56,970 nucleotides of DNA. Source: Candidatus Nanoarchaeia archaeon. Its GTDB lineage: Archaea; Nanobdellota; Nanobdellia; SCGC-AAA011-G17; GW2011-AR18. The position numbers and the translations under genes are program-made. This document shows positions 1,113-45,054 of this stretch, piece after piece. The notes beneath the pieces are model-generated. The model made no database searches, had not been told where the DNA came from, and worked only from the letters and a program-made list of their open reading frames with translations. The stretch covers positions 1 through 56,970 of the forward strand of contig DASRUL010000005.1 of the NCBI GenBank assembly GCA_035655455.1, written 5' to 3'. Positions within the stretch are counted from its first letter, which is position 1; each line of letters begins with the position of its first letter.

Positions 1113-1702
1113 TTAGGTACCAACGGCTCTGTAGAAAGTTAGAATGAAGACCGCTTGGCGGTCTTTAAGTATTAGGCTGTATGTGAGATATTTTCCGTAG
1201 CAATTTCTGGCTTGTTGCCAGAATGTTCGACCACGAAGAGTGTGACCAAAAACCGCTTTGATTGTATGGTTGTTACTTTCTGAATGAGCTCGAAGTGTGT
1301 AGATTTTTGGAAGACCTTTTTTTTTAATTTCTTGCGGTGTTCACCTTTTGTTCTCCAGATAGGAACTTCTAGATATTTTGGGGGGACGAATGATCGTCCT
1401 CCTACGCGAGCAATTTGCTCATGAAATTTCTCAGCGTCAAATTCTTTATCCGCAAGAACGTTCTTTCTTTTAAAGCTGGGAAGAAGTTCTGGAATGTCTT
1501 TCATTCCGTGTCGTTCTCTCGTACGAAGAAAGACATCTGGAACAAGATCGCATCGTGGGCAAATTACCACGCTTACCTTTCTTCCTTTGAATTTGCGTAT
1601 ATCTCTGCCAATCCGAGCGAGATAGCTTGCGCACGGATTTGTGGTTTGAAAATAGGTGGGATCTAAACTTCTAAGTTTATATTCAGTAGTCGCAAGAACA
1701 CT
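1113..1702 (-). pseudogene. IS4/IS5-type DDE transposase, C-terminal part (no start codon, frameshifted)
   Basis: The frame of ORF 1172..1570 stays open upstream to 1702 (SVLATTEYKLRSLDPTYFQTTNPCASYLARIGRDIRKFKGRKVSVVICPRCDLVP...LADKEFDAEKFHEQI...). The family-typical C-terminus YTLRAHSESNNHTIKAVFGHTLRGRTFWQQARN is in another frame downstream of an A9 run (T9 on + strand, 1317-1325) and runs into the IR. Confidence 0.65.
1125..1142. repeat. IS5-like terminal inverted repeat (left)
   Basis: GGCTCTGTAGAAAGTTAG. Partner at 2789-2806. Confidence 0.65.
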
Positions 1703-1768
1703 CTACTCCTTTAGGTCTGAGTGAATTGCGTGTAGAACAAAGCTTTTTCTAGTTAAAAAATAAAAAAA

Positions 1769-1795
1769 GTAGCGTAGCGTCAGACGCTACGCTAC
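1769..1795 (+). repeat. perfect 11-bp-stem hairpin upstream of tnpA (left-end structure of the IS200-like element)
   Basis: GTAGCGTAGCG-tcaga-CGCTACGCTAC. Confidence 0.6.
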
Positions 1796-1861
1796 TTGAA
1801 AGACATAAGCTAGTGTGAACTATCACTCTTTCTATAAAAACTTTGCGTCAGGAAAAAAAAC

Positions 1862-2344
1862 ATGAAAAACGGAATAGAACTAGTAAGAACAAGCTCAACT
1901 GTAGGAGAAATAAACCTTCACTTACAGTTAACACCAGCATACAGAAGAGACATCTTCTCCAACGAACAAGTAAAGGAGCTAACAAAAACATACTTCCTGG
2001 AGAAAGCAAAGAAACTCGGAATAATTATCGCCGCCTTAGACTTCGGTCCTGACCACTTCCACGCTTTCATAAGCAACTGGAAACATCACAGCGTTGAAAA
2101 ACTCGCTAACGAACTCAAAGGATTCACAAGCTACATGATGCGCAAGCATCATTGGGACTTATTCAGAAATAAACTTTGGGGAAACAAATTTTGGAGCGAA
2201 GGATACTTCTACAGAACAGTTGGAATAGTAACAGCAGAAGCAGTAAAATACTACGTAGAACACGGACAACAAAAACACTGGCAAGCAGTAGATTATGCTT
2301 ACTACAAAGACAAACAACAAGCCCTCCTCGCACAATTTTCTTAA
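1862..2344 (+). CDS. tnpA: IS200-type Y1 HUH transposase TnpA
   Basis: 160 aa. HUH motif in PDHFHAFI. Catalytic-Tyr region FWSEGYFYRTVG matches the IS200 pattern FW.RGY...TVG. AGGA-type RBS upstream. Confidence 0.8.
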   Translation: MKNGIELVRTSSTVGEINLHLQLTPAYRRDIFSNEQVKELTKTYFLEKAKKLGIIIAALDFGPDHFHAFISNWKHHSVEKLANELKGFTSYMMRKHHWDLFRNKLWGNKFWSEGYFYRTVGIVTAEAVKYYVEHGQQKHWQAVDYAYYKDKQQALLAQFS

Positions 2345-2358
2345 TAGAGGATTCACTT

Positions 2359-2407
2359 GGTAGGAGCTTTAGCTCCTCCCAACGACGCTCAGCCCTTTAG
2401 GGCTGAG
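2359..2407 (+). repeat. two TTTA-loop hairpins downstream of tnpA (right-end structures)
   Basis: GG(t)AGGAGC-TTTA-GCTCCTCC at 2359-2379 and CTCAGCCC-TTTA-GGGCTGAG at 2388-2407. Confidence 0.55.
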
Positions 2408-2446
2408 TAGTTCACGTTTGCATTTTCCTGACTCTTGCGCAGACTA

Positions 2447-2719
2447 GAGCAAGAGTCGTGGAGGAAGGCGTGCGAATGCCTTCTGAAGAGTTGTCCAATG
2501 GGGTTCTTCCTTGAGATTAATTGTTTTGGATTCAAGCAAGAAAGCTACAAAACGGCGGTAGCTTTTATCTTCGATCGAGAAGAAAACAAAGAACACGCAA
2601 ACAGTATGCACATCAAACTTTTCATTCCTTCTTTTACTCCAATGTTTTGGCACTCCAAAGCGGCTTACTAGCCGTTGCGTCTGAGACGCAATATTCTTAT
2701 AACTAAACACCTCTTTCAT
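2447..2719 (-). pseudogene. IS4/IS5-type DDE transposase, N-terminal part
   Basis: 91-aa ORF ...IEDKSYRRFVAFLLESKTINLKEEPHWTTLQKAFARLPPRLLL ends at a stop created at the IS200-like junction. The pattern YRxxxxxL...(P)HxTTLxKxxxRL is typical of the N-termini of these transposases. Confidence 0.55.
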
Positions 2720-2788
2720 CTATTCCTCCTAAATCGAATTTAGCGATTTTGTTTAGGAGGAAAGAGAGGGCACCGCCCTCTCTTAAAA

Positions 2789-2806
2789 CTTACTTTCTAC
2801 TGAGCC
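2789..2806. repeat. IS5-like terminal inverted repeat (right)
   Basis: CTTACTTTCTACTGAGCC is the reverse complement of GGCTCAGTAGAAAGTAAG. Confidence 0.65.
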
Positions 2807-2842
2807 AAAAGTAGCGGAAGCTTTAAATATAAGTTAATATTT

Positions 2843-28316: not shown

Positions 28317-29321
28317 CTAAATAACCCAGATCAAGGCGCTAAAAAAAGCCTCGATCCCCATCATCAACCACACGATTCTTTTTTCAGTAAACCTTCCCCT
28401 CCTTGTGAAGAGATGAATTAAAGAATAAATCCTCTCTCCCTGCCTTGAATGAACCTTCCCCTCCTTAAAAATACCATAACTCTGCGCCTGAAAATTACTT
28501 CTCGCTTTCAGAACAAACTCAATAAAAAAAGGAACAGACACGATCAACGCAGCCCTCTCAAGATTCCCCAAAATCGCGATAACAGCCAAAGAGCCACCCA
28601 TCAAGTAAGTCAAGGAATCACCAGGAAGAATTTTCGCAGGGAATTTATTGTACAAATAAAACGCGAGTAAAGCAGTGAATGTCACTAAGGCAATCAACGC
28701 ACCCAGGTACTCATGGTGCGTGTAAGCAAACAACCCTAAACTTCCCATATACACGAGCCCCATTCCAGCTTCCACCCCATTTAACCCCGCAAGCATATTC
28801 ACCATATTCGCAGCGCCTACCACTCCCAGCGGGACGAGCACTAAGGGATAAAGAATTCCAAAATCAACAACACCAAGGAAAGGGAGACCCATTTCTGTCG
28901 TACCAACGCTGACCACCATCAAAGGAATCGCCGCAGTCAATGTCAGCAGCGGTTTTTGCCACTGCCTCAACCCAGAAGAACTGTCCCGAGACTCAACCAC
29001 CAAATCATCCAGAAAACCGACGAGCGTAATAATAAAGATTGACACCATTGCCGCAAACAAAAACAATAATCCCGCCTCATTCACAACCCTGCTTAACTCT
29101 GTCTCTATGAAAAATGTCCTGACAAAAATAAACCCCAACAACCCAGCAAGCATGCCCGCAAGCACAGGAATACCAGCAGAAAAAGGAATCAAAGGCGTGT
29201 GTTCTTTGTTTTGATCCTTCACCTCTAAACGAATCTTTTTCACATAACGAATCCACCACGACATTCCTAAATACACTACCAAGAAGCTGATTACGCCGAA
29301 CAGCAAGACTAAGATGAGCAT
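28317..29321 (-). CDS. GlcNAc-1-phosphate transferase (AglH/WecA/MraY family)
   Basis: Polytopic, with FLDDLV and AANMVNMLAGLNGVEAG motifs. ATG at 29321 sits 21-31 nt downstream of a TATA-like box at 29342-29352 (the track start at 29336 is TTG). Confidence 0.75.
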   Translation of the reverse strand: MLILVLLFGVISFLVVYLGMSWWIRYVKKIRLEVKDQNKEHTPLIPFSAGIPVLAGMLAGLLGFIFVRTFFIETELSRVVNEAGLLFLFAAMVSIFIITLVGFLDDLVVESRDSSSGLRQWQKPLLTLTAAIPLMVVSVGTTEMGLPFLGVVDFGILYPLVLVPLGVVGAANMVNMLAGLNGVEAGMGLVYMGSLGLFAYTHHEYLGALIALVTFTALLAFYLYNKFPAKILPGDSLTYLMGGSLAVIAILGNLERAALIVSVPFFIEFVLKARSNFQAQSYGIFKEGKVHSRQGERIYSLIHLFTRRGRFTEKRIVWLMMGIEAFFSALIWVI

Positions 29322-29357
29322 TATCAAGCCCACCAAGAAAGCTTATAAAAAGGTTTC

Positions 29358-29380
29358 CCTCAGCTTGGCTCTGTCCTAAG
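29358..29380. repeat. left end of cargo element 2: 9-bp direct repeat CCTCAGCTT (29358-29366) plus 14-bp TIR GGCTCTGTCCTAAG (29367-29380)
   Basis: An exact inverted copy CTTAGGACAGAGCC lies at 32447-32460, followed by an exact CCTCAGCTT at 32461-32469. Confidence 0.65.
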
Positions 29381-29474
29381 TCCTTTTCACGAGTTACATT
29401 CCAAGCCACTCAAATCGGGTTTTCTTATGGAAAAAACTGGGTCTTTCCAAAGTGAACATTCAACAAAAATAAGG

Positions 29475-29487
29475 TTTAGGACAGAGC
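29475..29487. repeat. third, internal copy of the element-2 TIR (forms a 121-bp MITE-like unit with 29367-29380)
   Basis: TTAGGACAGAGCC, in the same orientation as the right TIR. Confidence 0.5.
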
Positions 29488-29632
29488 CCCCAACAACAAC
29501 ACTAAAAGCGAGATCATTGCAGCTACCGCGATAGTCGCTGTTTTTTTTGCGCTCTTTTTCCTGCATGGAACTGGTAGCGACAGTAAAAACTACAAAACTG
29601 GCCAAAGGATCAAAAATTACCCGGAATTTAAC

Positions 29633-32140
29633 TTACACGCATCGCCCAGAATTACAAACTTTTAAGTTCGGGCATTGTGAATTAGACGTGCAAGCCGAGC
29701 ATAGCCATCCCCCTGGAGTTAGAGCGCAGTATCCAGACCGGCATTGCGAAGATCTCAAACATACACCGCCATTCCTGATGCTGCTGGCTCCGCAAACTCT
29801 TCTGGTCTGGTATTGGATGCAGGCTCCCGAGGAACAATCAGAATCTACTGTGCACAATGAGCCATCAGGCAAATTGGTTTGCGCTTGGCTGGAGCAGACA
29901 TTGTTCAGACAATTAAACGATTGGCACTGGATGCTTAAGCTGCAGGATGCGCCAGCCTGAAGATTGGATGGCAGGCAGGTCAGTCTGCTTGATCCGGCAG
30001 GATATCTGCATAAATTGGAGCTGCATTCTGAATCAGTTGAACATGATGCGCCATAGCCTAAACTTCCTGTCTCAGCCAAGCAGAATTTACCTTGTCCTGC
30101 AGGATTATTGATGCAATTTCCGGATAAGCATTGGTTATGGTTTTCACAGGTTTCACCGACGGAAAATCCGGCTATACAGAATTTTGCGTTTATTGGTCCT
30201 CGGCATAAATTAGGAGCGGGGCACTCTTCGTTGTACCAGCAGGAATCTCCGATGTTTTTTAAAGGTATACATTGTTTTTGAGTAAATTGACCGATTCGTC
30301 TACATGATCCGGAAAGGCATTGCGCATCTACATAACAGTTCTGATAATCTTCGAAGTTAGAGTTGAGGCATATTTTTTCTCCAAGAGGATCACTTGCGCA
30401 AAGATTTGAGGTACACTGGCGACTAGTTGAACAGAATCTATCTTTAGTGAGCCCAGAAGGGAGACATTGTTTAATTCTTATTCCTTGCGGATAATCGCAC
30501 ACTCCGGAAATGCATTCAGCGTCATTGGAGCAGGTATAACCGCCGCGTCCATGCAAATTTCCAGTGCATATTCCGCGTAGATCTACTTGGCCGGTAGTCT
30601 CAATCATTCGATAACATATATGAGCTTCATTTATTTCTTCGTAATTTCTTTGTGAGAATATTATGTTTCCATCATTACCAAAACCAGAAGCGAGATGCCC
30701 AGCACCACCACCCATGACTGACATCTCAGTTGGTTTAACTAAAAAAAAAGCGTAAGAACATCCATTAAATACATTAGGCCACCAAGGTTTAGAACTCGGT
30801 AGACAATTAGGGTATAGTGGAAAAGGATATCCTGGGTTCGTGGTATATTCATCAGCAAGATTGCCAAACGAGTGTCCTACTTCGTGAAGAAATGTAATTA
30901 TAATGTTGTTCCAAACAGTACTGTCATCATCGCTTAACCAAACTCGTGAATTTCCGCCCATCACGAAAGAGAACCATCGGTCAAAATTAGCAGAAGATTT
31001 GCATTTATCCCTAAGCACGTAAATAATATTAGTATTGGATAACCCGCAGGGCTCAATTGGATTATATCGATCGCACGTCTCTTTAAGATCATTGCGAGAG
31101 GAGGGTAAAGGTAAATCCTGATCCAGATACCAGAAATTGAACAAATGATTATTGTACTTAAAAGGATCCATTCCAAACAAGCCAGATGTTGATCTTTTTC
31201 GGAGGTCTTCTCGGGTATATCGTTCTGTTACTCCTTTCGCATTATAATCAATCATCTCTAACAAATATTTTGTAAACTCCGGAAGTCCTCGTTGATCCCG
31301 ACCGTAACCTAGCCCCACAAAAACAAGGTTAACTCGGTTTTCGCCCAAAGCGTTATGCCCAGGAAAAATTTCTTTGTAACCAGTACACTCCTGCTGGAAG
31401 GTATTGCCTTCATCGCTGTTAATCCCCACTAACGTTCGTTCAGACGAACCATCTACTGTTCTTCCAGTAATTAAAGAGGGCTGGCTTCCTCCCACGGATA
31501 CGGGAGTTATTGAAGAACTCATCAATTCAAAATATTCCCGGTTTCCAGAGCTGGAAACAGCATATTCTTGGTCAGAAACAACCGCTCCTTTATTAGAGAT
31601 TATCTGCAATCTTGCCGGGCTGTTGGCTAAAGGCCTTTCCACGGTAAATCTAACTTCCACTTCCGTTTTAGAACTTTCTTTAATATTTCCTAAATTAATG
31701 GTTCCATCGTCATTAAACTGTTCGGAGATCTCTAAAGTGGTCAGGCCAAAAAATTGCGTATAATCTTGGCTGTTAACATTCAAAACTGCCCGGTAAATTT
31801 CTTCCTGATTTAATCCTCCGGCTTCCTGAGCCTGAGTTCTATATTCTTCAATTTTCCTGGTTGCTTCTGAAGACTGAGTGTACATTCGCGCCTGTTTCAA
31901 TTTCCAATTGCCGGTGTCCAAAACCAAGGCATAGACATAATGCCGTATCCCTTCAGAAGTCATCGGGCTAATTTCTCCCCGGATGGAGCTTGCTGTTGAT
32001 TTGCTTGCAGAAAATTTGTTGAAATCAGTTGAGAAAGCCTGCCCGACAAAATTCTCATTTCCAATAATGATCACTCCGGAAATTACTGCCAGCAACAGAA
32101 CAAGTATTACATAATGAACTTGCTTAAAACCTCTTTTCAT
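29633..32140 (-). CDS. secreted or anchored M64-like zinc metallopeptidase with a C-terminal array of ~10 four-Cys modules
   Basis: 835 aa. N-terminal TM/signal anchor (VHYVILVLLLAVISGVIIIG). FLHEVGHSFGNLADEY (30845-30886) matches my recollection of the M64 IgA-peptidase-like HExxHxxGxxxDEY signature. The last 301 aa are Cys-rich repeats. Confidence 0.65.
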   Translation of the reverse strand: MKRGFKQVHYVILVLLLAVISGVIIIGNENFVGQAFSTDFNKFSASKSTASSIRGEISPMTSEGIRHYVYALVLDTGNWKLKQARMYTQSSEATRKIEEYRTQAQEAGGLNQEEIYRAVLNVNSQDYTQFFGLTTLEISEQFNDDGTINLGNIKESSKTEVEVRFTVERPLANSPARLQIISNKGAVVSDQEYAVSSSGNREYFELMSSSITPVSVGGSQPSLITGRTVDGSSERTLVGINSDEGNTFQQECTGYKEIFPGHNALGENRVNLVFVGLGYGRDQRGLPEFTKYLLEMIDYNAKGVTERYTREDLRKRSTSGLFGMDPFKYNNHLFNFWYLDQDLPLPSSRNDLKETCDRYNPIEPCGLSNTNIIYVLRDKCKSSANFDRWFSFVMGGNSRVWLSDDDSTVWNNIIITFLHEVGHSFGNLADEYTTNPGYPFPLYPNCLPSSKPWWPNVFNGCSYAFFLVKPTEMSVMGGGAGHLASGFGNDGNIIFSQRNYEEINEAHICYRMIETTGQVDLRGICTGNLHGRGGYTCSNDAECISGVCDYPQGIRIKQCLPSGLTKDRFCSTSRQCTSNLCASDPLGEKICLNSNFEDYQNCYVDAQCLSGSCRRIGQFTQKQCIPLKNIGDSCWYNEECPAPNLCRGPINAKFCIAGFSVGETCENHNQCLSGNCINNPAGQGKFCLAETGSLGYGASCSTDSECSSNLCRYPAGSSRLTCLPSNLQAGASCSLSIQCQSFNCLNNVCSSQAQTNLPDGSLCTVDSDCSSGACIQYQTRRVCGASSIRNGGVCLRSSQCRSGYCALTPGGWLCSACTSNSQCPNLKVCNSGRCV
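29636..30538 (-). other. protein-level tandem array of ~10 four-Cys modules (C-x5-C-x3/4-C-x6-12-C)
   Basis: Examples: TCSNDAECISGVCDYPQGIRIKQC, FCSTSRQCTSNLCASDPLGEKIC, NCYVDAQCLSGSCRRIGQFTQKQC, TCENHNQCLSGNCINNPAGQGKFC, SCSTDSECSSNLCRYPAGSSRLTC, LCTVDSDCSSGACIQYQTRRVC. Confidence 0.7.
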
Positions 32141-32146
32141 GTTCTT

Positions 32147-32410
32147 CTATTCTGGTGTTATACAGAATGGTTGCGGTGGGTAGGACTCTAATAAGCCGCA
32201 TCCATTTCTATTTCCACACCGGTCTTCGCAATATTGGGAAAATTCTTGATAACTCAGGCATTTTTGTCCAGTTTCTATCGCATAGCAATTTAGTCCGGCA
32301 GGGCAATTTCCTTCATTATTGCAGGAAACAAAATTATTTCTGGTGGCGCTTTGACATGCCGTCAATATTAATGAGGTGAGCAAGGATAATATCAACAATA
32401 GTTTTTTCAT
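32147..32410 (-). CDS. small Cys-rich putative lipoprotein containing one copy of the same Cys module
   Basis: 87 aa. Signal peptide plus lipobox-like LILTAC. SCNNEGNCPAGLNCYAIETGQKC fits the module of the downstream gene. It ends 6 nt before the M64-like gene start, and a TATA-like box lies upstream inside the element. Confidence 0.6.
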   Translation of the reverse strand: MKKLLLILSLLTSLILTACQSATRNNFVSCNNEGNCPAGLNCYAIETGQKCLSYQEFSQYCEDRCGNRNGCGLLESYPPQPFCITPE

Positions 32411-32446
32411 CTATTAAAGAAGAATTAACTAGTATAAAAATGTTAT

Positions 32447-32469
32447 CTTAGGACAGAGCCCCTCAGCTT
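32447..32469. repeat. right end of cargo element 2: TIR (32447-32460) plus direct repeat CCTCAGCTT (32461-32469)
   Basis: See 29358..29380. Confidence 0.65.
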
Positions 32470-32553
32470 TTTTTTATTCTTGATGCGAGAAAACTATCCA
32501 CTTTAGTGGACTGAGATGAATCGCATTCTATTTGAATTCTGAAAAATTAAAAT

Positions 32554-32580
32554 GCATGGCGAGCGAAGCTTGCGCCATGC
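32554..32580 (+). repeat. strong hairpin upstream of the second tnpA
   Basis: GCATGGCG-a-GCGAAGC-tt-GCGCCATGC. An 8-bp outer stem encloses a GCGAAGC mini-hairpin. Confidence 0.5.
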
Positions 32581-32634
32581 ACTTTTCACTAAAGTTCAAC
32601 ATAGCGTTAGCTCTCCTCCGCCAGGAGCACAAAA

Positions 32635-33057
32635 ATGGAATACACACGTCATGCGCACAGCGTCGGAGACAACTTTTGGCACATAGAATGGTGTCCAAAG
32701 TACCGCTATAACATATTTGAGAAATTTAAGTATAAGAACCTTGCGGAAGCCTGCATCCGCAAAGTGGCCAAAGAACACAGCCTTGTGATTCACGAACTGC
32801 AAGTCATGCCTGATCACTTGCACTGTGTCGTTAGCATTCCAGATACAATGAGCATCTCAGAAGCAACAAGACTTCTGAAAGGAAGAAGCAGTTACTTGTT
32901 CTTCCGCAATCATGAGAAAGCACGATTACGCTATCCACAAGGACATTTGTGGAGCGTTGGAACATTCAGAACAAGTGTAGGTCACTCAGATCTTCCAACT
33001 ACTCTTCGTTACGTAAGAGAACAACAAGAATATCATGCAGTAGCATCACCCGCATGA
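32635..33057 (+). CDS. tnpA: IS200-type HUH transposase homolog lacking the catalytic tyrosine
   Basis: 140 aa. WHIEWCPKYRYNIF, HUH in PDHLHCVV, and KGRSS are all IS200-like. The FW.RGY..TVG region reads LWSVGTFRTSVG (Thr110, ACA at 32962-32964). AGGAG RBS 9 nt upstream. Confidence 0.75.
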   Translation: MEYTRHAHSVGDNFWHIEWCPKYRYNIFEKFKYKNLAEACIRKVAKEHSLVIHELQVMPDHLHCVVSIPDTMSISEATRLLKGRSSYLFFRNHEKARLRYPQGHLWSVGTFRTSVGHSDLPTTLRYVREQQEYHAVASPA

Positions 33058-33147
33058 AGCCTCGGACTTTAGCTCGAGGAGAAGGTTACTTAGACTAACT
33101 TTCTCTACCCAAAAACTCTTAAATAGCATTCGCTGACCAAAAATTTC

Positions 33148-33957
33148 ATGACCCTTAAGTTTTTATCCCCCAGCTTTAGAACACGATACCTCAGCATCCT
33201 CGGCCTTGTAGAAAACCTCTCAAAACATCATTCTCTCACAACAACCCTCAACATTGGCTGCGGAGAAGGAGACTACGACAGAGCCCTCACTCCTTACTGC
33301 ACAACCCTCCACTCAGGAGACCTCAACCCTTACGACGTCGCCTTCTGCAAAGAAGCAAACAAAGACCTCGCTATTCGTTACCAAGAACTCGACGCGGAAA
33401 ACTTACCCTTCCAAGACGAAGCCTTTGACTGCATCCTCTGTATAGAAGTCCTAGAACACGTCAACTCCATCGAAAAATCCCTCCAAAACATCCAACGCGC
33501 CCTCAAAAAGGGAGGACTCCTCATCATCACCGTACCCAACTCACGATTCCCTTTCACCTACGACCCCATCAACACCATTCTCAACCTTTTCAACATTTCT
33601 CTTCCCATAGGAGCATACGCCTACGGACATCAAAAACTCATCACCGAAGAAACACTCGAACAACAACTCGCCACATACGGACTCACCCTCCTCAAAAAAG
33701 AACATCTCTCCCATTACCTCGTAGGCTTCTTCGAAATGTACTGGGCAGGACTCGCACAAGCTCTCTTCAAACACAATTCAAAAAACACCCTCAAAAGAAC
33801 CAATAAAAAACTCGTTTTGAGATCAATAACGCTCAACCCCCCAAAAATCCTCCTCTCCATCATCGATACACTTATCCAACTTGATGAAGACCTTTTTAAA
33901 AAATCCAAACGTTCCATAGGCTTCTTACTTTTTCTTCAGAAAACTACGTCGCAATAA
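33148..33957 (+). CDS. class I SAM-dependent methyltransferase
   Basis: LNIGCGEGDY...FDCILCIEVLEHV...GGLLIITVPN. Confidence 0.7.
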   Translation: MTLKFLSPSFRTRYLSILGLVENLSKHHSLTTTLNIGCGEGDYDRALTPYCTTLHSGDLNPYDVAFCKEANKDLAIRYQELDAENLPFQDEAFDCILCIEVLEHVNSIEKSLQNIQRALKKGGLLIITVPNSRFPFTYDPINTILNLFNISLPIGAYAYGHQKLITEETLEQQLATYGLTLLKKEHLSHYLVGFFEMYWAGLAQALFKHNSKNTLKRTNKKLVLRSITLNPPKILLSIIDTLIQLDEDLFKKSKRSIGFLLFLQKTTSQ

Positions 33958-44073: not shown

Positions 44074-45054
44074 ATGGTGGATATTGACTGCTTTTCGGTT
44101 CCTGGAATCTTTACTACACTCTTTGTTGCGCAACCTGTTCCTTTTGTTCCATCTGTTCCTGCCGAATACGTTTTCTGGGTCAAAAGACCATCACTCAGAG
44201 ATCCAGAACTAGAAGCGTTAATCGACTCCAAATGGCAAGCTCAAATAGAAACGAAAAAGAGGGAACTTGAAGCTAGAGGCGTACAAGATATAGCAATACG
44301 CCCTGATGAACGAGGACTTCCCGCACTCTATGAAGGAGAAAGAAAAATCATGTTTGACGGAACTATCTTTAGAGTATCTGATGTTTGCCCTGCCTTTGAT
44401 GGCACAGAAGCGGTCTGTATTGATGTTGAAGAAGGAAGATTCAGCACCATCAACCTCTCTCGCGATCCGGAATTTAGAGCACTCTCAGAAAAAAAATCCG
44501 GAGAAATAAGAAACGACGCTCTCGGCTCTTCAGAACTTCTTGTTACGAAAGATGGTTATATTGTTCTTACAAACAGAGGAGAACGACCAAACACCTACAA
44601 AAATCAGATGTATATGCCTGGAGGAAGACCTTCAACAGTAGCAGAATCTCCTTTAGAACACCAACTTGGAGAGAATGCTGAAGAACTTGGCTTAACATCA
44701 GAAGACTATCTTCGAGGCACAAAACACTGCTTTTACGGAATTGTTGCTGACGAACAACTTAACAGAAACAGAGAACTCATGTTCAAAGTTGAACTCAGCC
44801 TCACTGCAGATGAAGTGCAAAAAAGATACGATGCTTTACCAAAAAAACCAATAGACGTTGCTTCCTTAGAATTTTTATCTGCTGATGCAGACTCAATCTT
44901 GGGAAGACTTCTTAACGACGCACTTTGCCCAAGAAATAAGCCTGGCATTGTCATCCCACCAACCTTGGGTCTTTTAACACACTACGGATTCCACTCCTAC
45001 GGTCAAATGTGGCTTGAAGAGCTTGATATAAAAGTAAAAGAAGGAGATTTCTAA
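44074..45054 (+). CDS. divergent Nudix-fold protein with an N-terminal extension
   Basis: PGGRPSTVAESPLEHQLGENAEELGL approximates the Nudix box Gx5Ex7REUxEExGU but with GE in place of RE. Confidence 0.5.
   Translation: MVDIDCFSVPGIFTTLFVAQPVPFVPSVPAEYVFWVKRPSLRDPELEALIDSKWQAQIETKKRELEARGVQDIAIRPDERGLPALYEGERKIMFDGTIFRVSDVCPAFDGTEAVCIDVEEGRFSTINLSRDPEFRALSEKKSGEIRNDALGSSELLVTKDGYIVLTNRGERPNTYKNQMYMPGGRPSTVAESPLEHQLGENAEELGLTSEDYLRGTKHCFYGIVADEQLNRNRELMFKVELSLTADEVQKRYDALPKKPIDVASLEFLSADADSILGRLLNDALCPRNKPGIVIPPTLGLLTHYGFHSYGQMWLEELDIKVKEGDF

What the first reader, a model, noticed from the sequence alone, without database searches (positions are those of the whole stretch)
29358..32469. Transposase-less 3.1-kb cargo transposon (perfect 14-bp TIRs, 9-bp TSD) carrying two secreted Cys-rich protein genes
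GGCTCTGTCCTAAG (29367-29380) and its exact reverse complement (32447-32460) are each flanked on the outside by an exact CCTCAGCTT (29358-29366 and 32461-32469). That is the TIR-plus-TSD signature of a cut-and-paste insertion. The interior holds only an M64-like/Cys-repeat protein gene and a small Cys-rich lipoprotein gene with their own TATA-like promoter. There is no transposase. The first 8 nt of the TIR (GGCTCTGT) are identical to those of the dead IS5-like element at 1125-1142, so mobilisation in trans by that IS family is plausible. A third TIR copy at 29475-29487 makes the left 121 bp look like a MITE, hinting at a MITE-flanked composite origin. The interior lacks the C>G bias of the flanking DNA. 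The element sits 6 bp upstream of the TATA-like box of the AglH-like gene. MITE-like ends mobilising surface or secreted effector genes in a small archaeal genome would be an unusual gene-transfer vehicle.
Basis: seen in the sequence. Interest (0 to 1): 0.75.

Follow-up and report, generated by a model that had tools for sequence, protein, structure and literature searches.

The report
Transposase-less cargo transposon in a DPANN archaeon
A 3.1-kb DNA segment carrying a secreted metalloprotease gene and a small Cys-rich ORF was inserted into this tiny archaeon's genome as a non-autonomous transposon that uses the ends of an undescribed IS5-like insertion-sequence/MITE family common in Woesearchaeota/Nanoarchaeota; this kind of element is known from bacteria, but I found no report of one in these archaea.

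Summary
The segment 29367-32460 (3,094 bp) has perfect 14-bp inverted ends and exact 9-bp direct repeats (CCTCAGCTT). It contains no transposase.

Outside evidence shows this is a real transposition signature. The same 13-bp terminal core (GGCTCTGTCCTAA) bounds 76 elements in metagenomes and mostly Woesearchaeota/Nanoarchaeota MAGs. Of these, 48 have perfect 9-bp target duplications and 13 more match 8/9; control flanks never exceed 5/9. Elements of about 890 bp with these ends encode a 268-aa IS5-like DDE transposase.

The left 122 bp is a complete MITE, 82% identical to an independent copy that has its own 9-bp duplication. The right end is a solo TIR.

The cargo genes have third-codon-position GC skew of +0.19 and +0.25, against -0.59 +/- 0.10 for all 31 host genes. 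In two relatives the flanking genes are adjacent, 35 nt apart.

The cargo is an M64-like zinc metalloprotease with Cys-rich repeats, plus an uncalled 87-aa lipoprotein-like ORF.

Not found: an exact empty site, a second copy of the element, or a cognate transposase in the window. The dead IS at 1125 is only a distant relative.

Verdict: a real mobile-insertion-cassette-like element, a new member of a known kind, of moderate interest.

The parts
29358..29366 (.). Left copy of the 9-bp target-site duplication, CCTCAGCTT
   Evidence: Only two copies in the window, each abutting an element end. The 9-bp TSD is the family rule: 48/76 perfect.
29367..29380 (+). Outer left terminal inverted repeat, GGCTCTGTCCTAAG
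   Evidence: Perfect complement of 32447-32460. The 13-nt core is identical to the ends of about 890-bp ISs and of MITEs in DPANN MAGs.
29367..29488 (.). Complete 122-bp MITE forming the left end (both TIRs present; the inner end has no TSD of its own)
   Evidence: 102/124 (82%) identical to the reverse complement of the independent MITE L100:4399-4519, which has its own TSD AGGTGGTTC. The inner flank is CCCAACAAC, not CCTCAGCTT.
29475..29488 (-). Inner TIR of the MITE (GGCTCTGTCCTAAA on the minus strand), in the same orientation as the distal right TIR
29489..29632 (-). Non-coding 3' region of the cargo operon, with T-runs on the minus strand (probable archaeal terminator; inferred)
   Evidence: Read from the sequence. 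No ORF with support. No Rfam family.
29633..32140 (-). Cargo gene 1: 835-aa protein with an N-terminal signal/anchor helix, beta-rich domains, an M64-like Zn-metallopeptidase domain (HEVGH 419-423, DEY 430-432) and Cys-rich C-terminal repeats (eight regex-matched C-x5-6-C-x4-5-C-x8-10-C units; 41 Cys after residue 520)
   Evidence: Pfam Peptidase_M64 2e-4, below cutoff. 13/27 family members hit M64. Profile vs PDB: 4df9/3p1v at 3e-9. AF2 pLDDT 73.9; Foldseek's only significant hits are BF3526/BACOVA_00663 at 2e-9 to 8e-8. Cys pattern. Third-position skew +0.19 vs host -0.59.
32147..32410 (-). Cargo ORF 2: 87 aa, with a signal peptide, a lipobox-like LTAC and 9 Cys; a probable gene
   Evidence: ORF. 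TATA box 22 nt upstream of the ATG, as for the host GT4 gene. Only weak lipoprotein-signal hits. Absent from every public gene call. Third-position skew +0.25.
32411..32446 (-). Cargo promoter region; TATA-like TTTTTATA at 32433-32440 on the minus strand, 6 nt inside the TIR and 22 nt upstream of the ATG
   Evidence: Read from the sequence. Same TATA-to-ATG geometry as the GT4 gene and as P0002 in L026. Function inferred.
32447..32460 (-). Distal right terminal inverted repeat (solo TIR, no MITE body)
32461..32469 (.). Right copy of the 9-bp target-site duplication, CCTCAGCTT
29337..29357 (-). Host context: BRE/TATA promoter of the GT4 (AglH-like) gene (GAAACCTTTTTATAA), left intact immediately next to the TSD
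   Evidence: The same motif lies upstream of the GT4 orthologue in L238.
32500..33100 (+). Neighbour, not part of the element: IS200/IS605-like insertion (TnpA 32635-33057; hairpins 32549-32585 and 33061-33080); approximate ends
   Evidence: Y1_Tnp 1e-25, transpos_IS200 2e-25. Skew change-point at 33085-33100. Hairpins.
1125..2807 (-). Distantly related dead IS5-like element (TIR GGCTCTGTAGAAAGT / GGCTCAGTAGAAAGT), split by another IS200-like insertion at 1679-2402
   Evidence: An intact relative, L108:1414-2364, has a 9-bp TSD.

Best explanation
The segment 29367-32460 is a non-autonomous cargo transposon (a mobile-insertion-cassette-like element). It belongs to an IS5-like IS/MITE family whose ends begin GGCTCTGTCCTAA and which makes 9-bp target duplications.

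Its left end is a complete 122-bp MITE. Its right end is a solo 14-bp TIR. Between them lie an M64-like secreted or anchored zinc metalloprotease gene and a small Cys-rich lipoprotein-like ORF, with their own archaeal TATA promoter.

Proposed mechanism. A DDE transposase supplied in trans synapsed the MITE's outer end with the distal solo end, rather than with the MITE's own inner end. The enzyme was of the 268-aa type encoded by the ~890-bp ISs of this family. It moved the whole 3.1 kb and integrated it with 9-bp staggered cuts into the divergent intergenic region between the GT4/AglH-like gene and a methyltransferase gene. The insertion point is directly upstream of the GT4 BRE/TATA, so no host gene or promoter was broken.

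Shown: the anatomy, the family and its TSD rule, the absence of a transposase, the foreign composition of the cargo, and the absence of the insert in syntenic relatives. Inferred: trans-mobilisation, which transposase did it, cut-and-paste versus copy-paste, the donor, and expression of the cargo.
For: (1) Perfect 14-bp TIRs plus exact 9-bp direct repeats abutting them.

(2) A metagenome scan for the two ends 83-113 nt apart found 9 MITEs. Seven have perfect 9-bp TSDs and two match 8/9.

About 100 are Nanoarchaeota, Woesearchaeota, 'Ca. Nanoarchaeia' or other archaeal MAGs. Over both scans there are 76 TIR pairs shorter than 1.2 kb: 48 with 9/9 TSD and 13 with 8/9. Control flanks shifted by 5 nt never exceed 5/9.

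(4) Elements of 887-909 bp with these ends encode 268-270-aa DDE transposases whose best NCBIfam match is the IS5 family (1.6e-33). Three identical copies in one Woesearchaeota genome each have a different perfect TSD.

(5) The left 122 bp is 82% identical to an independent MITE with its own TSD, in an archaeal contig from the same aquifer. Its inner end here lacks a TSD, so the last event used the outer and the distal ends.

(6) Third-position GC skew of the two cargo ORFs is +0.19 and +0.25. All 31 host genes lie between -0.43 and -0.85 whatever their coding strand (z = 7.4). The left skew change-point falls at 29281-29416.

(7) In relatives L238 and L239 (GT4 68% and 67% identical) the PMT_2 gene sits 35 nt upstream of GT4, with the same GAAACCTTTTTATAA promoter, and seven downstream genes are syntenic. 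Neither the cargo genes nor the TIRs are there.

(8) The structure is identical in more than 20 independent assemblies, so it is not an assembly artefact.
Against: No exact empty site was found; the closest GT4 relatives are only 71% identical.

No second copy of this cargo element was found. Among 129 family loci no other cargo-sized element with a TSD was seen, although 8-kb chunking limits that search.

No cognate transposase lies in the 57-kb window. The only IS5-like element there is dead and distant.

The element is fixed in the population. Its SNP density matches that of the flanks (0.19% vs 0.27%), so there is no sign of current mobility.

The two nearest homologues of the cargo protease looked up (P0002 at 48% identity and P0201 at 37%) sit in other genomes without these TIRs. 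The gene family therefore also moves, or resides, by other means.
Confidence: 0.85

Rival explanations
1. Independent events. The cargo DNA arrived by some other route, for example together with the adjacent IS200-like element or by recombination. A MITE and a solo TIR then happen to lie at its borders, and the 9-bp repeats are coincidental.
For: The anomalous-skew block extends beyond the right TSD to about 33100 and includes the IS200-like element. The two nearest cargo homologues looked up (P0002, P0201) sit in other genomes without TIRs.
Against: An exact 9-mer abutting both outer ends has a chance of about 4e-6, and 9 bp is exactly this family's TSD length. The MITE's own inner end has no matching TSD. 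IS200/IS605 elements make neither TIRs nor TSDs, and this one has its own hairpin ends at 32549-32585 and 33061-33080. Its third-position skew (-0.30) differs from the cargo's (+0.19, +0.25), which suggests a separate arrival.
Confidence: 0.04
2. A formerly autonomous element (a 'transporter IS' carrying passenger genes) that moved itself and lost its transposase gene after insertion.
For: Transporter ISs with passenger genes are a recognised class (PMC3129680). The ends are those of an IS family with a very compact transposase gene.
Against: There is no transposase remnant. Every base is accounted for by the MITE, the two ORFs, 144 nt of 3' DNA and 36 nt of promoter. The left end was already a MITE, homologous over its whole length to an independent MITE. 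A clean ~800-bp deletion that left perfect TIRs and TSD is less parsimonious.
Confidence: 0.06
3. Assembly or binning artefact: a chimeric join of foreign DNA into an archaeal contig at repeated TIRs.
For: The element has a different composition from its surroundings. Two assemblies break inside the 835-aa gene.
Against: The same junctions, at >=99.75% identity, occur in more than 20 contigs from different samples and assemblers (ENA MEGAHIT, JGI, Logan, ANAN16 scaffolds). The contig breaks are not at the TIRs. Strain SNPs run through both element and flanks.
Confidence: 0.01

Closest known systems
Mobile insertion cassettes (MICs), e.g. MIC231 of Bacillus cereus (Chen et al. 1999; De Palmenaer et al. 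2004, as cited in PMC2266710; concept in PMC3129680)
   Same: IS-type terminal inverted repeats bracket passenger genes unrelated to transposition. There is no transposase. The element is flanked by the direct repeats typical of the parent IS. Mobilisation is expected from a cognate IS in trans.
   Different: MIC231 derives from IS231 (IS4 family, 10-12-bp DRs), occurs in Firmicutes, and was shown experimentally to be trans-mobilised. Here the parent is an IS5-like family with 9-bp TSD in DPANN archaea. One end is a whole MITE and the other a bare 14-bp TIR. Mobilisation is inferred only.
MITE-bounded composite transposon-like structures (439-bp MITE pair around a blaPER-1 integron in Acinetobacter, PMC3934969; TIME-COMPs, PMC13367494)
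   Same: Non-autonomous miniature elements supply the ends that move the intervening genes. The target duplication flanks the whole composite rather than each MITE.
   Different: Those have two complete MITE copies; here there is one MITE plus a solo TIR. They come from other transposon families (Tn3-derived and others), carry resistance genes and are bacterial.
IS5 family, IS903-like elements (9-bp duplication and ends beginning GGCTTTGT are from my own knowledge of IS903, not tested here)
   Same: DDE transposase whose best match is NCBIfam 'IS5 family transposase' (transpos_IS5_2). Short TIRs begin GGCT. The TSD is 9 bp.
   Different: The cognate archaeal IS is about 890 bp with a 268-aa transposase that scores below the NCBIfam cutoff (116 vs 140 bits). 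No phylogeny was made and no ISfinder name is known. The TIR string appears in no paper in a transposon context.
Archaeal MITEs (Sulfolobus, Halobacterium, Haloquadratum and others; review PMC10969869)
   Same: Non-autonomous IS derivatives in archaea that are mobilised in trans.
   Different: The described archaeal MITEs carry no genes. The review lists no DPANN examples and its text contains neither 'cargo' nor 'passenger'.
Peptidase family M64 and Bacteroides BF3526/BACOVA_00663 metallopeptidases (for the cargo protein)
   Same: HExxH zinc site followed by a conserved DEY. There are profile and fold matches to 4df9, 9qdi and 3p1v.
   Different: Sequence identity is 11-15%. The Pfam score is below the gathering threshold. 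The protein has an extra N-terminal beta domain and a roughly 300-aa Cys-rich repeat tail, and it comes from an archaeon.

Membership tests
Non-autonomous derivative of the GGCTCTGTCCTAA / 9-bp-TSD IS5-like family | Terminal inverted repeats identical to those of the autonomous IS | tested here: met
   The 13-nt core is identical to both ends of the 887-909-bp ISs in L118, L138, L169, L176, L188 and L189, and to one end of the ISs in L147 and L202, whose other end has one mismatch.
Non-autonomous derivative of the GGCTCTGTCCTAA / 9-bp-TSD IS5-like family | Target-site duplication of the family's length (9 bp) | tested here: met
   Exact 9-bp CCTCAGCTT on both sides. In the family, 48/76 pairs are perfect and 13 match 8/9; the control maximum is 5/9.
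Non-autonomous derivative of the GGCTCTGTCCTAA / 9-bp-TSD IS5-like family | No transposase gene between the ends | tested here: met
   ORF map and Pfam/NCBIfam scans of the interior.
Non-autonomous derivative of the GGCTCTGTCCTAA / 9-bp-TSD IS5-like family | Cognate transposase present in the same genome | not testable with these tools
   Only 57 kb of the genome is available and it holds only a dead, distant IS5-like element. The rest of the MAG could not be listed.
Mobile insertion cassette (MIC) | Passenger gene(s) unrelated to transposition bracketed by IS ends and direct repeats | tested here: met
   An M64-like protease gene and an 87-aa ORF lie between the TIRs, with a 9-bp DR.
Mobile insertion cassette (MIC) | Demonstrated mobility: more than one insertion site, or experimental trans-mobilisation | tested here: not met
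   Only a single site is known. All contigs share the same junctions. There is no second copy among 129 family loci.
MITE-bounded composite transposon | A complete MITE copy at each end | tested here: not met
   The left end is a complete MITE. The right end is a 14-bp TIR followed after 6 nt by the cargo TATA box. No second inner TIR is found at <=3 mismatches.
IS5 family (for the cognate and the remnant transposases) | DDE transposase matching the IS5 family model above the curated cutoff | tested here: inconclusive
   transpos_IS5_2 is the best hit for all three transposase clades (1.6e-33, 1.2e-29, 5.6e-26), but scores of 92-117 bits fall below the 140-bit cutoff. Pfam DDE_Tnp_1 is precomputed for most homologues.
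Peptidase M64 (cargo protein) | Pfam PF09471 at or above the gathering score | tested here: not met
   20.9 bits against a cutoff of 26, matching residues 410-457 only.
Peptidase M64 (cargo protein) | HExxH zinc site and an M64-like catalytic fold | tested here: met
   H419, E420, H423, D430, E431 and Y432 are >=90% conserved in the family alignment. 13/27 members hit M64. PDB profile hits at 3e-9. Foldseek's only significant hits are BF3526/BACOVA_00663 at 2e-9 to 8e-8.
IS200/IS605 (adjacent element, considered as the possible mobiliser) | Y1 transposase with subterminal hairpins; makes no TIR and no TSD | tested here: met
   Y1_Tnp 1e-25 and hairpins. Membership is met for the neighbouring element itself, and this chemistry cannot explain a TIR plus a 9-bp TSD (established knowledge of the family). 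It was therefore rejected as the mobiliser.

The most novel reading that the evidence does not exclude
This may be the first archaeal mobile insertion cassette to be recognised. The GGCTCTGTCCTAA / 9-bp-TSD elements would then be a major, so far undescribed IS5-like IS/MITE family of Woesearchaeota/Nanoarchaeota. That family would occasionally capture neighbouring genes between a MITE and a stray TIR, and so shuttle secreted or surface effector genes (here an M64-like protease) between episymbiotic DPANN genomes sharing a habitat.
Probability: 0.3. Interest if true: 0.55.

Novelty: new member of a known kind. Interest (0 to 1): 0.4.

Why it matters
DPANN archaea have very small genomes, and little is known about how they gain accessory genes. 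This locus is a clean, datable case. A secreted-protease operon was delivered by a non-autonomous transposon whose ends belong to an abundant IS/MITE family of Woesearchaeota/Nanoarchaeota. I could find no description of that family. The host's extreme strand-compositional bias works as a built-in marker of recently arrived DNA. The mechanism itself, trans-mobilised cargo between IS ends, is already established in bacteria, so the value lies in a new lineage and a new IS family rather than a new principle.

Tried and rejected
1. Scan of IMG/VR for the 14-mer TIR: 64 loci with one hit each, at chance level.

2. Exact empty-site junction (GGTTTCCCTCAGCTTTTTTTTATTC) in all 239 fetched loci: none. 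Exact-protein look-ups of the GT4, cargo and TnpA proteins show the same filled site in every contig.

3. The dead IS at 1125 as cognate partner: rejected as the direct partner. Its transposase is only 25-28% identical to the 268-aa type, and its TIR differs after 8 nt.

4. The P0060-type IS from the same samples (TIR GGCTCTGTCCGAAGTT): its hosts have about 60% GC, so it is not this organism. The element next to it (L110:2579-3551) looked like a possible cargo element but is a frameshifted IS copy.

5. ORF 44074-45054, in a skew-neutral block, as a second island: rejected, because its third-position skew is host-like at -0.48 and it has no TIR or TSD.

6. Contexts of the cargo homologues P0002 and P0201: no GGCTCNGT ends bracket either gene. 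There are none in L026/L027, and in L240 there is a single 8-mer match about 3 kb from the gene.

7. Search for other cargo-sized (>1.1 kb) TSD-flanked pairs in 129 family loci: only the window's element.

8. Rfam on 29200-33200: nothing.

9. Literature search for the TIR string: only unrelated primer sequences.

10. The IS200-like TnpA as mobiliser: rejected on mechanism.

Full report
OBSERVATION. GGCTCTGTCCTAAG lies at 29367-29380 and its exact reverse complement at 32447-32460. CCTCAGCTT occurs only twice in the 56,970-bp window, at 29358-29366 and 32461-32469, each time abutting an end. A third end (13/14 match) at 29475-29488 has the same orientation as the right end. The architecture is therefore L-R...R: a 122-bp TIR-bounded unit (29367-29488), then 2,958 bp, then a solo right end.

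A perfect 14-nt inverted pair within 5 kb is expected about once by chance in 57 kb (my arithmetic), and relaxed matches to the TIR are not enriched over shuffles. The significance therefore rests on the abutting 9-mers (about 4e-6 by chance) and on the evidence from outside the window.

CONTENT. The interior holds:
- an 835-aa ORF (29633-32140, minus strand);
- an 87-aa ORF (32147-32410, minus strand);
- 144 nt of 3' non-coding DNA;
- a 36-nt promoter region.
There is no space for a transposase and no remnant of one. Rfam finds nothing.

THE ENDS BELONG TO A REAL TRANSPOSON FAMILY. One metagenome scan for the two ends 83-113 nt apart returned 9 MITEs of 119-137 bp. Seven have perfect 9-bp flanking duplications and two match 8/9.

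About 100 of those loci are Nanoarchaeota, Woesearchaeota, 'Ca. Nanoarchaeia', unclassified archaeal MAGs, or MAGs labelled 'uncultured Methanosarcinales'. The roughly 17 bacterial loci each have a single unpaired hit, as expected by chance.

Pairing ends across all these loci gives 76 elements shorter than 1.2 kb. Forty-eight have perfect 9/9 duplications and 13 have 8/9. Control flanks shifted by 5 nt never exceed 5/9.

Nine to ten of the pairs are 887-1,003 bp. Most of these encode a 268-270-aa DDE transposase with AIDSTG, ADKGY and YHRR..E motifs. Its best NCBIfam match is 'IS5 family transposase' (1.6e-33, below the curated cutoff). Three identical 890-bp copies in one Woesearchaeota genome each have a different perfect 9-bp duplication (L169, L188, L189), so this IS is or recently was active. 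I found no publication containing the TIR string in a transposon context.

THE LEFT END IS A BONA FIDE MITE. Window 29367-29488 is 102/124 (82%) identical over its whole length to the reverse complement of L100:4399-4519. That copy is an independent MITE with its own duplication AGGTGGTTC. It lies in a 28%-GC archaeal contig (best hit archaeal Trm14) from a JGI metagenome (3300025317) that also yielded a contig of the P0002 locus.

In the window, the MITE's inner end is followed by CCCAACAAC, not CCTCAGCTT. The last transposition event therefore paired the MITE's outer end with the distal solo end and moved everything between them. The distal end is a bare TIR. Six nt inside it lies a TATA-like box (TTTTTATA, 32433-32440 on the minus strand), 22 nt upstream of the ATG of the 87-aa ORF. 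This is the same TATA-to-ATG spacing as in the host GT4 gene and in the homologue P0002, which indicates archaeal, probably leaderless, expression (inferred).

THE CARGO IS COMPOSITIONALLY FOREIGN. The host DNA has an extreme strand asymmetry. GC skew on the plus strand is about -0.3 to -0.5 along the window. In plus-strand sense, third-codon-position skew is -0.43 to -0.85 for all 31 host genes, whichever strand encodes them (mean -0.586, sd 0.105).

The two cargo ORFs are the only positive values (+0.19 and +0.25; z = 7.4). A two-change-point fit places the left boundary at 29281-29416 and the right at 33085-33100.

The right boundary lies beyond the element because a separate IS200/IS605-like insertion sits next to it. 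Its features are TnpA at 32635-33057 (Y1_Tnp 1e-25), hairpins at 32549-32585 and 33061-33080, and third-position skew -0.30. That enzyme family makes neither TIRs nor duplications, so it does not explain the element.

SYNTENY. No exact empty site exists in the data. Every contig with the identical GT4, cargo or TnpA protein has the filled site, and the nearest other GT4 proteins are only 71% identical.

Two relatives are still informative: L238 (GT4 68% identical) and L239 (67%). In both, the PMT_2 glycosyltransferase gene ends 35 nt upstream of GT4. In L238 the spacer contains the same promoter motif, GAAACCTTTTTATAA, and seven downstream genes are collinear with the window.

In the window, 4.6 kb separates these two genes. 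It consists of a host-like methyltransferase gene, the IS200-like element and the cargo element. The cargo element's duplication lies directly against the conserved GT4 BRE/TATA, which is intact.

POPULATION. More than 20 contigs from different samples and assemblers carry identical junctions at >=99.75% identity, which excludes an assembly artefact. In the most divergent strain, the element has 6 SNPs in 3.1 kb (0.19%) against 27 in 9.9 kb of flank (0.27%). The insertion therefore predates the strain split and is fixed. There is no sign of ongoing movement.

THE CARGO. The 835-aa protein has only one close homologue among 5.8 billion clustered proteins: P0002, 48% identical. An exhaustive HMMER search with residues 1-560 found 223 relatives.

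In the family alignment, H419, E420, H423, D430, E431 and Y432 are >=90% conserved. Thirteen of 27 members match Pfam Peptidase_M64; the window protein itself scores below the threshold. The family profile hits the M64-like Bacteroides peptidases 4df9 and 3p1v at about 3e-9. An AlphaFold model (mean pLDDT 73.9) has those same structures as its only significant Foldseek matches (2e-9 to 8e-8).

The protein has an N-terminal hydrophobic helix. Its C-terminal region carries 41 cysteines, with eight regex-matched C-x5-6-C-x4-5-C-x8-10-C units. 'Secreted or anchored M64-like metalloprotease with Cys-rich repeats' is therefore supported.

The 87-aa ORF has a signal peptide with an LTAC lipobox-like motif and nine cysteines. 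It has no homologue I could test and is absent from every public gene call, so it is only a probable gene.

Neither P0002 (another strongly skewed genome from the same site, where it is again a composition island with third-position skew +0.29 against a host value of -0.6) nor P0201 (a non-skewed archaeal genome, where it looks native) is bracketed by these TIRs.

THE SUGGESTED PARTNER IS. The element at 1125-2807 is a dead IS5-like copy. Its ends are GGCTCTGTAGAAAGT and GGCTCAGTAGAAAGT, and it is split by a second IS200-like insertion at 1679-2402. An intact relative (L108, 951 bp) also makes a 9-bp duplication.

Its transposase is only about 25-28% identical to the 268-aa enzymes of the ISs that carry the exact GGCTCTGTCCTAA ends. 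It belongs to the same broad family but is not the cognate element. One 188-bp MITE with one end of each type and a perfect duplication (L167) shows that cross-recognition cannot be excluded. Whether this genome holds a cognate transposase could not be tested.

COMPARISON AND VERDICT. In function and architecture this is a mobile insertion cassette, or a MITE-bounded composite. Such elements are IS ends around passenger genes, without a transposase, mobilised in trans. The class is known from bacteria: MIC231, MITE-flanked integrons and TIME-COMPs.

It meets the structural criteria. It fails or cannot be tested on demonstrated mobility and on the presence of a cognate transposase. It differs from the MITE-pair composites in having one MITE plus a solo TIR.

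A review of prokaryotic MITEs lists no DPANN examples and its text contains neither 'cargo' nor 'passenger'. A search combining Woesearchaeota with insertion sequences found nothing relevant.

I rate it a new member of a known kind, well supported at about 0.85 that the segment was inserted as one unit by transposition. Interest is moderate. The by-products may interest specialists as much as the element itself: an abundant undescribed IS/MITE family in DPANN archaea, and the extreme strand bias of this genome.

Noticed in passing
whole window (e.g. 3786-56304); L026; L238: Extreme strand-compositional asymmetry that does not depend on gene orientation. Plus-strand GC skew is about -0.35, and third-codon-position skew is -0.43 to -0.85 for all 31 host genes. 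It resembles the G/C disparity reported for Microgenomates Ch65 (29.8% C vs 15.0% G; PMC7143001), but here in a DPANN archaeon. In relative L238 the syntenic glycosylation block has the opposite polarity relative to its genes: the GT4 coding strand is C-rich there and G-rich here.
   Followed up: partly
window 32500-33100 (TnpA 32635-33057): An IS200/IS605-like element lies about 40-70 nt outside the right target duplication. It has hairpins at 32549-32585 and 33061-33080, intermediate third-position skew (-0.30), and a single context in all contigs. The order of its arrival relative to the cargo element is unresolved.
   Followed up: partly
window 1125-2807: A dead IS5-like element is split by a second, different IS200-like insertion (1679-2402; TnpA 160 aa at 1862-2344). 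The boundaries were fixed by alignment to the intact IS in L108. No 9-bp duplication flanks the remnant.
   Followed up: yes
L026:7800-10660: The closest homologue of the cargo protease (P0002, 48% identical) sits in another strongly skewed genome as a sharp island of opposite skew (+0.29 vs -0.6 at third positions). It lies between an SbcC-like gene and a DUF460 gene, with no TIRs. Eight of the nine other contigs that carry it are 2.9-3.4 kb long and end just either side of this gene. How it got there is unexplained.
   Followed up: partly
L167:3669-3856: A 188-bp MITE has hybrid ends, GGCTCTGTAGAAA (the type of the window's dead IS) and GGCTCTGTCCTAA (the type of the cargo element), and a perfect 9-bp duplication GCAATCTAT. 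This suggests cross-recognition of the two end types.
   Followed up: no
window 32373-32424 compared with L012/L023: Four of the six SNPs that distinguish the most divergent strain inside the element cluster in the signal-peptide and promoter region of the 87-aa ORF.
   Followed up: no
window 29633-32410: Annotation gaps. The 87-aa ORF is in no public gene call. NCBI annotates the protease gene as 669 aa (HZX11900.1, VFE88_00380), whereas the 835-aa form is called in 16 contigs.
   Followed up: yes
L124, L125, L131, L142, L150, L152-L154, L165, L167, L172, L175, L177, L184, L187, L191, L200, L204, L208, L209, L220, L225: Many family MITEs (143-, 165- and 197-bp classes) lie in MAGs labelled 'uncultured Methanosarcinales archaeon'. 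Either the family extends beyond DPANN or these bins are mislabelled.
   Followed up: no
window ~31175-31190 and ~31809-31833 (L014/L025, L015/L024): Two assemblies break inside the 835-aa gene, not at the TIRs, with 16-25 nt of overlap between the contig ends. The cause (coverage or strain variation) was not examined.
   Followed up: no
window 33148-33957: A 269-aa methyltransferase gene lies between PMT_2 and GT4. It overlaps PMT_2 convergently by 14 nt and is absent from that position in relatives L238 and L239. Public gene callers replace it with three small antisense ORFs, yet it has strong Pfam support (1.6e-22) and host-like skew (-0.85).
   Followed up: partly
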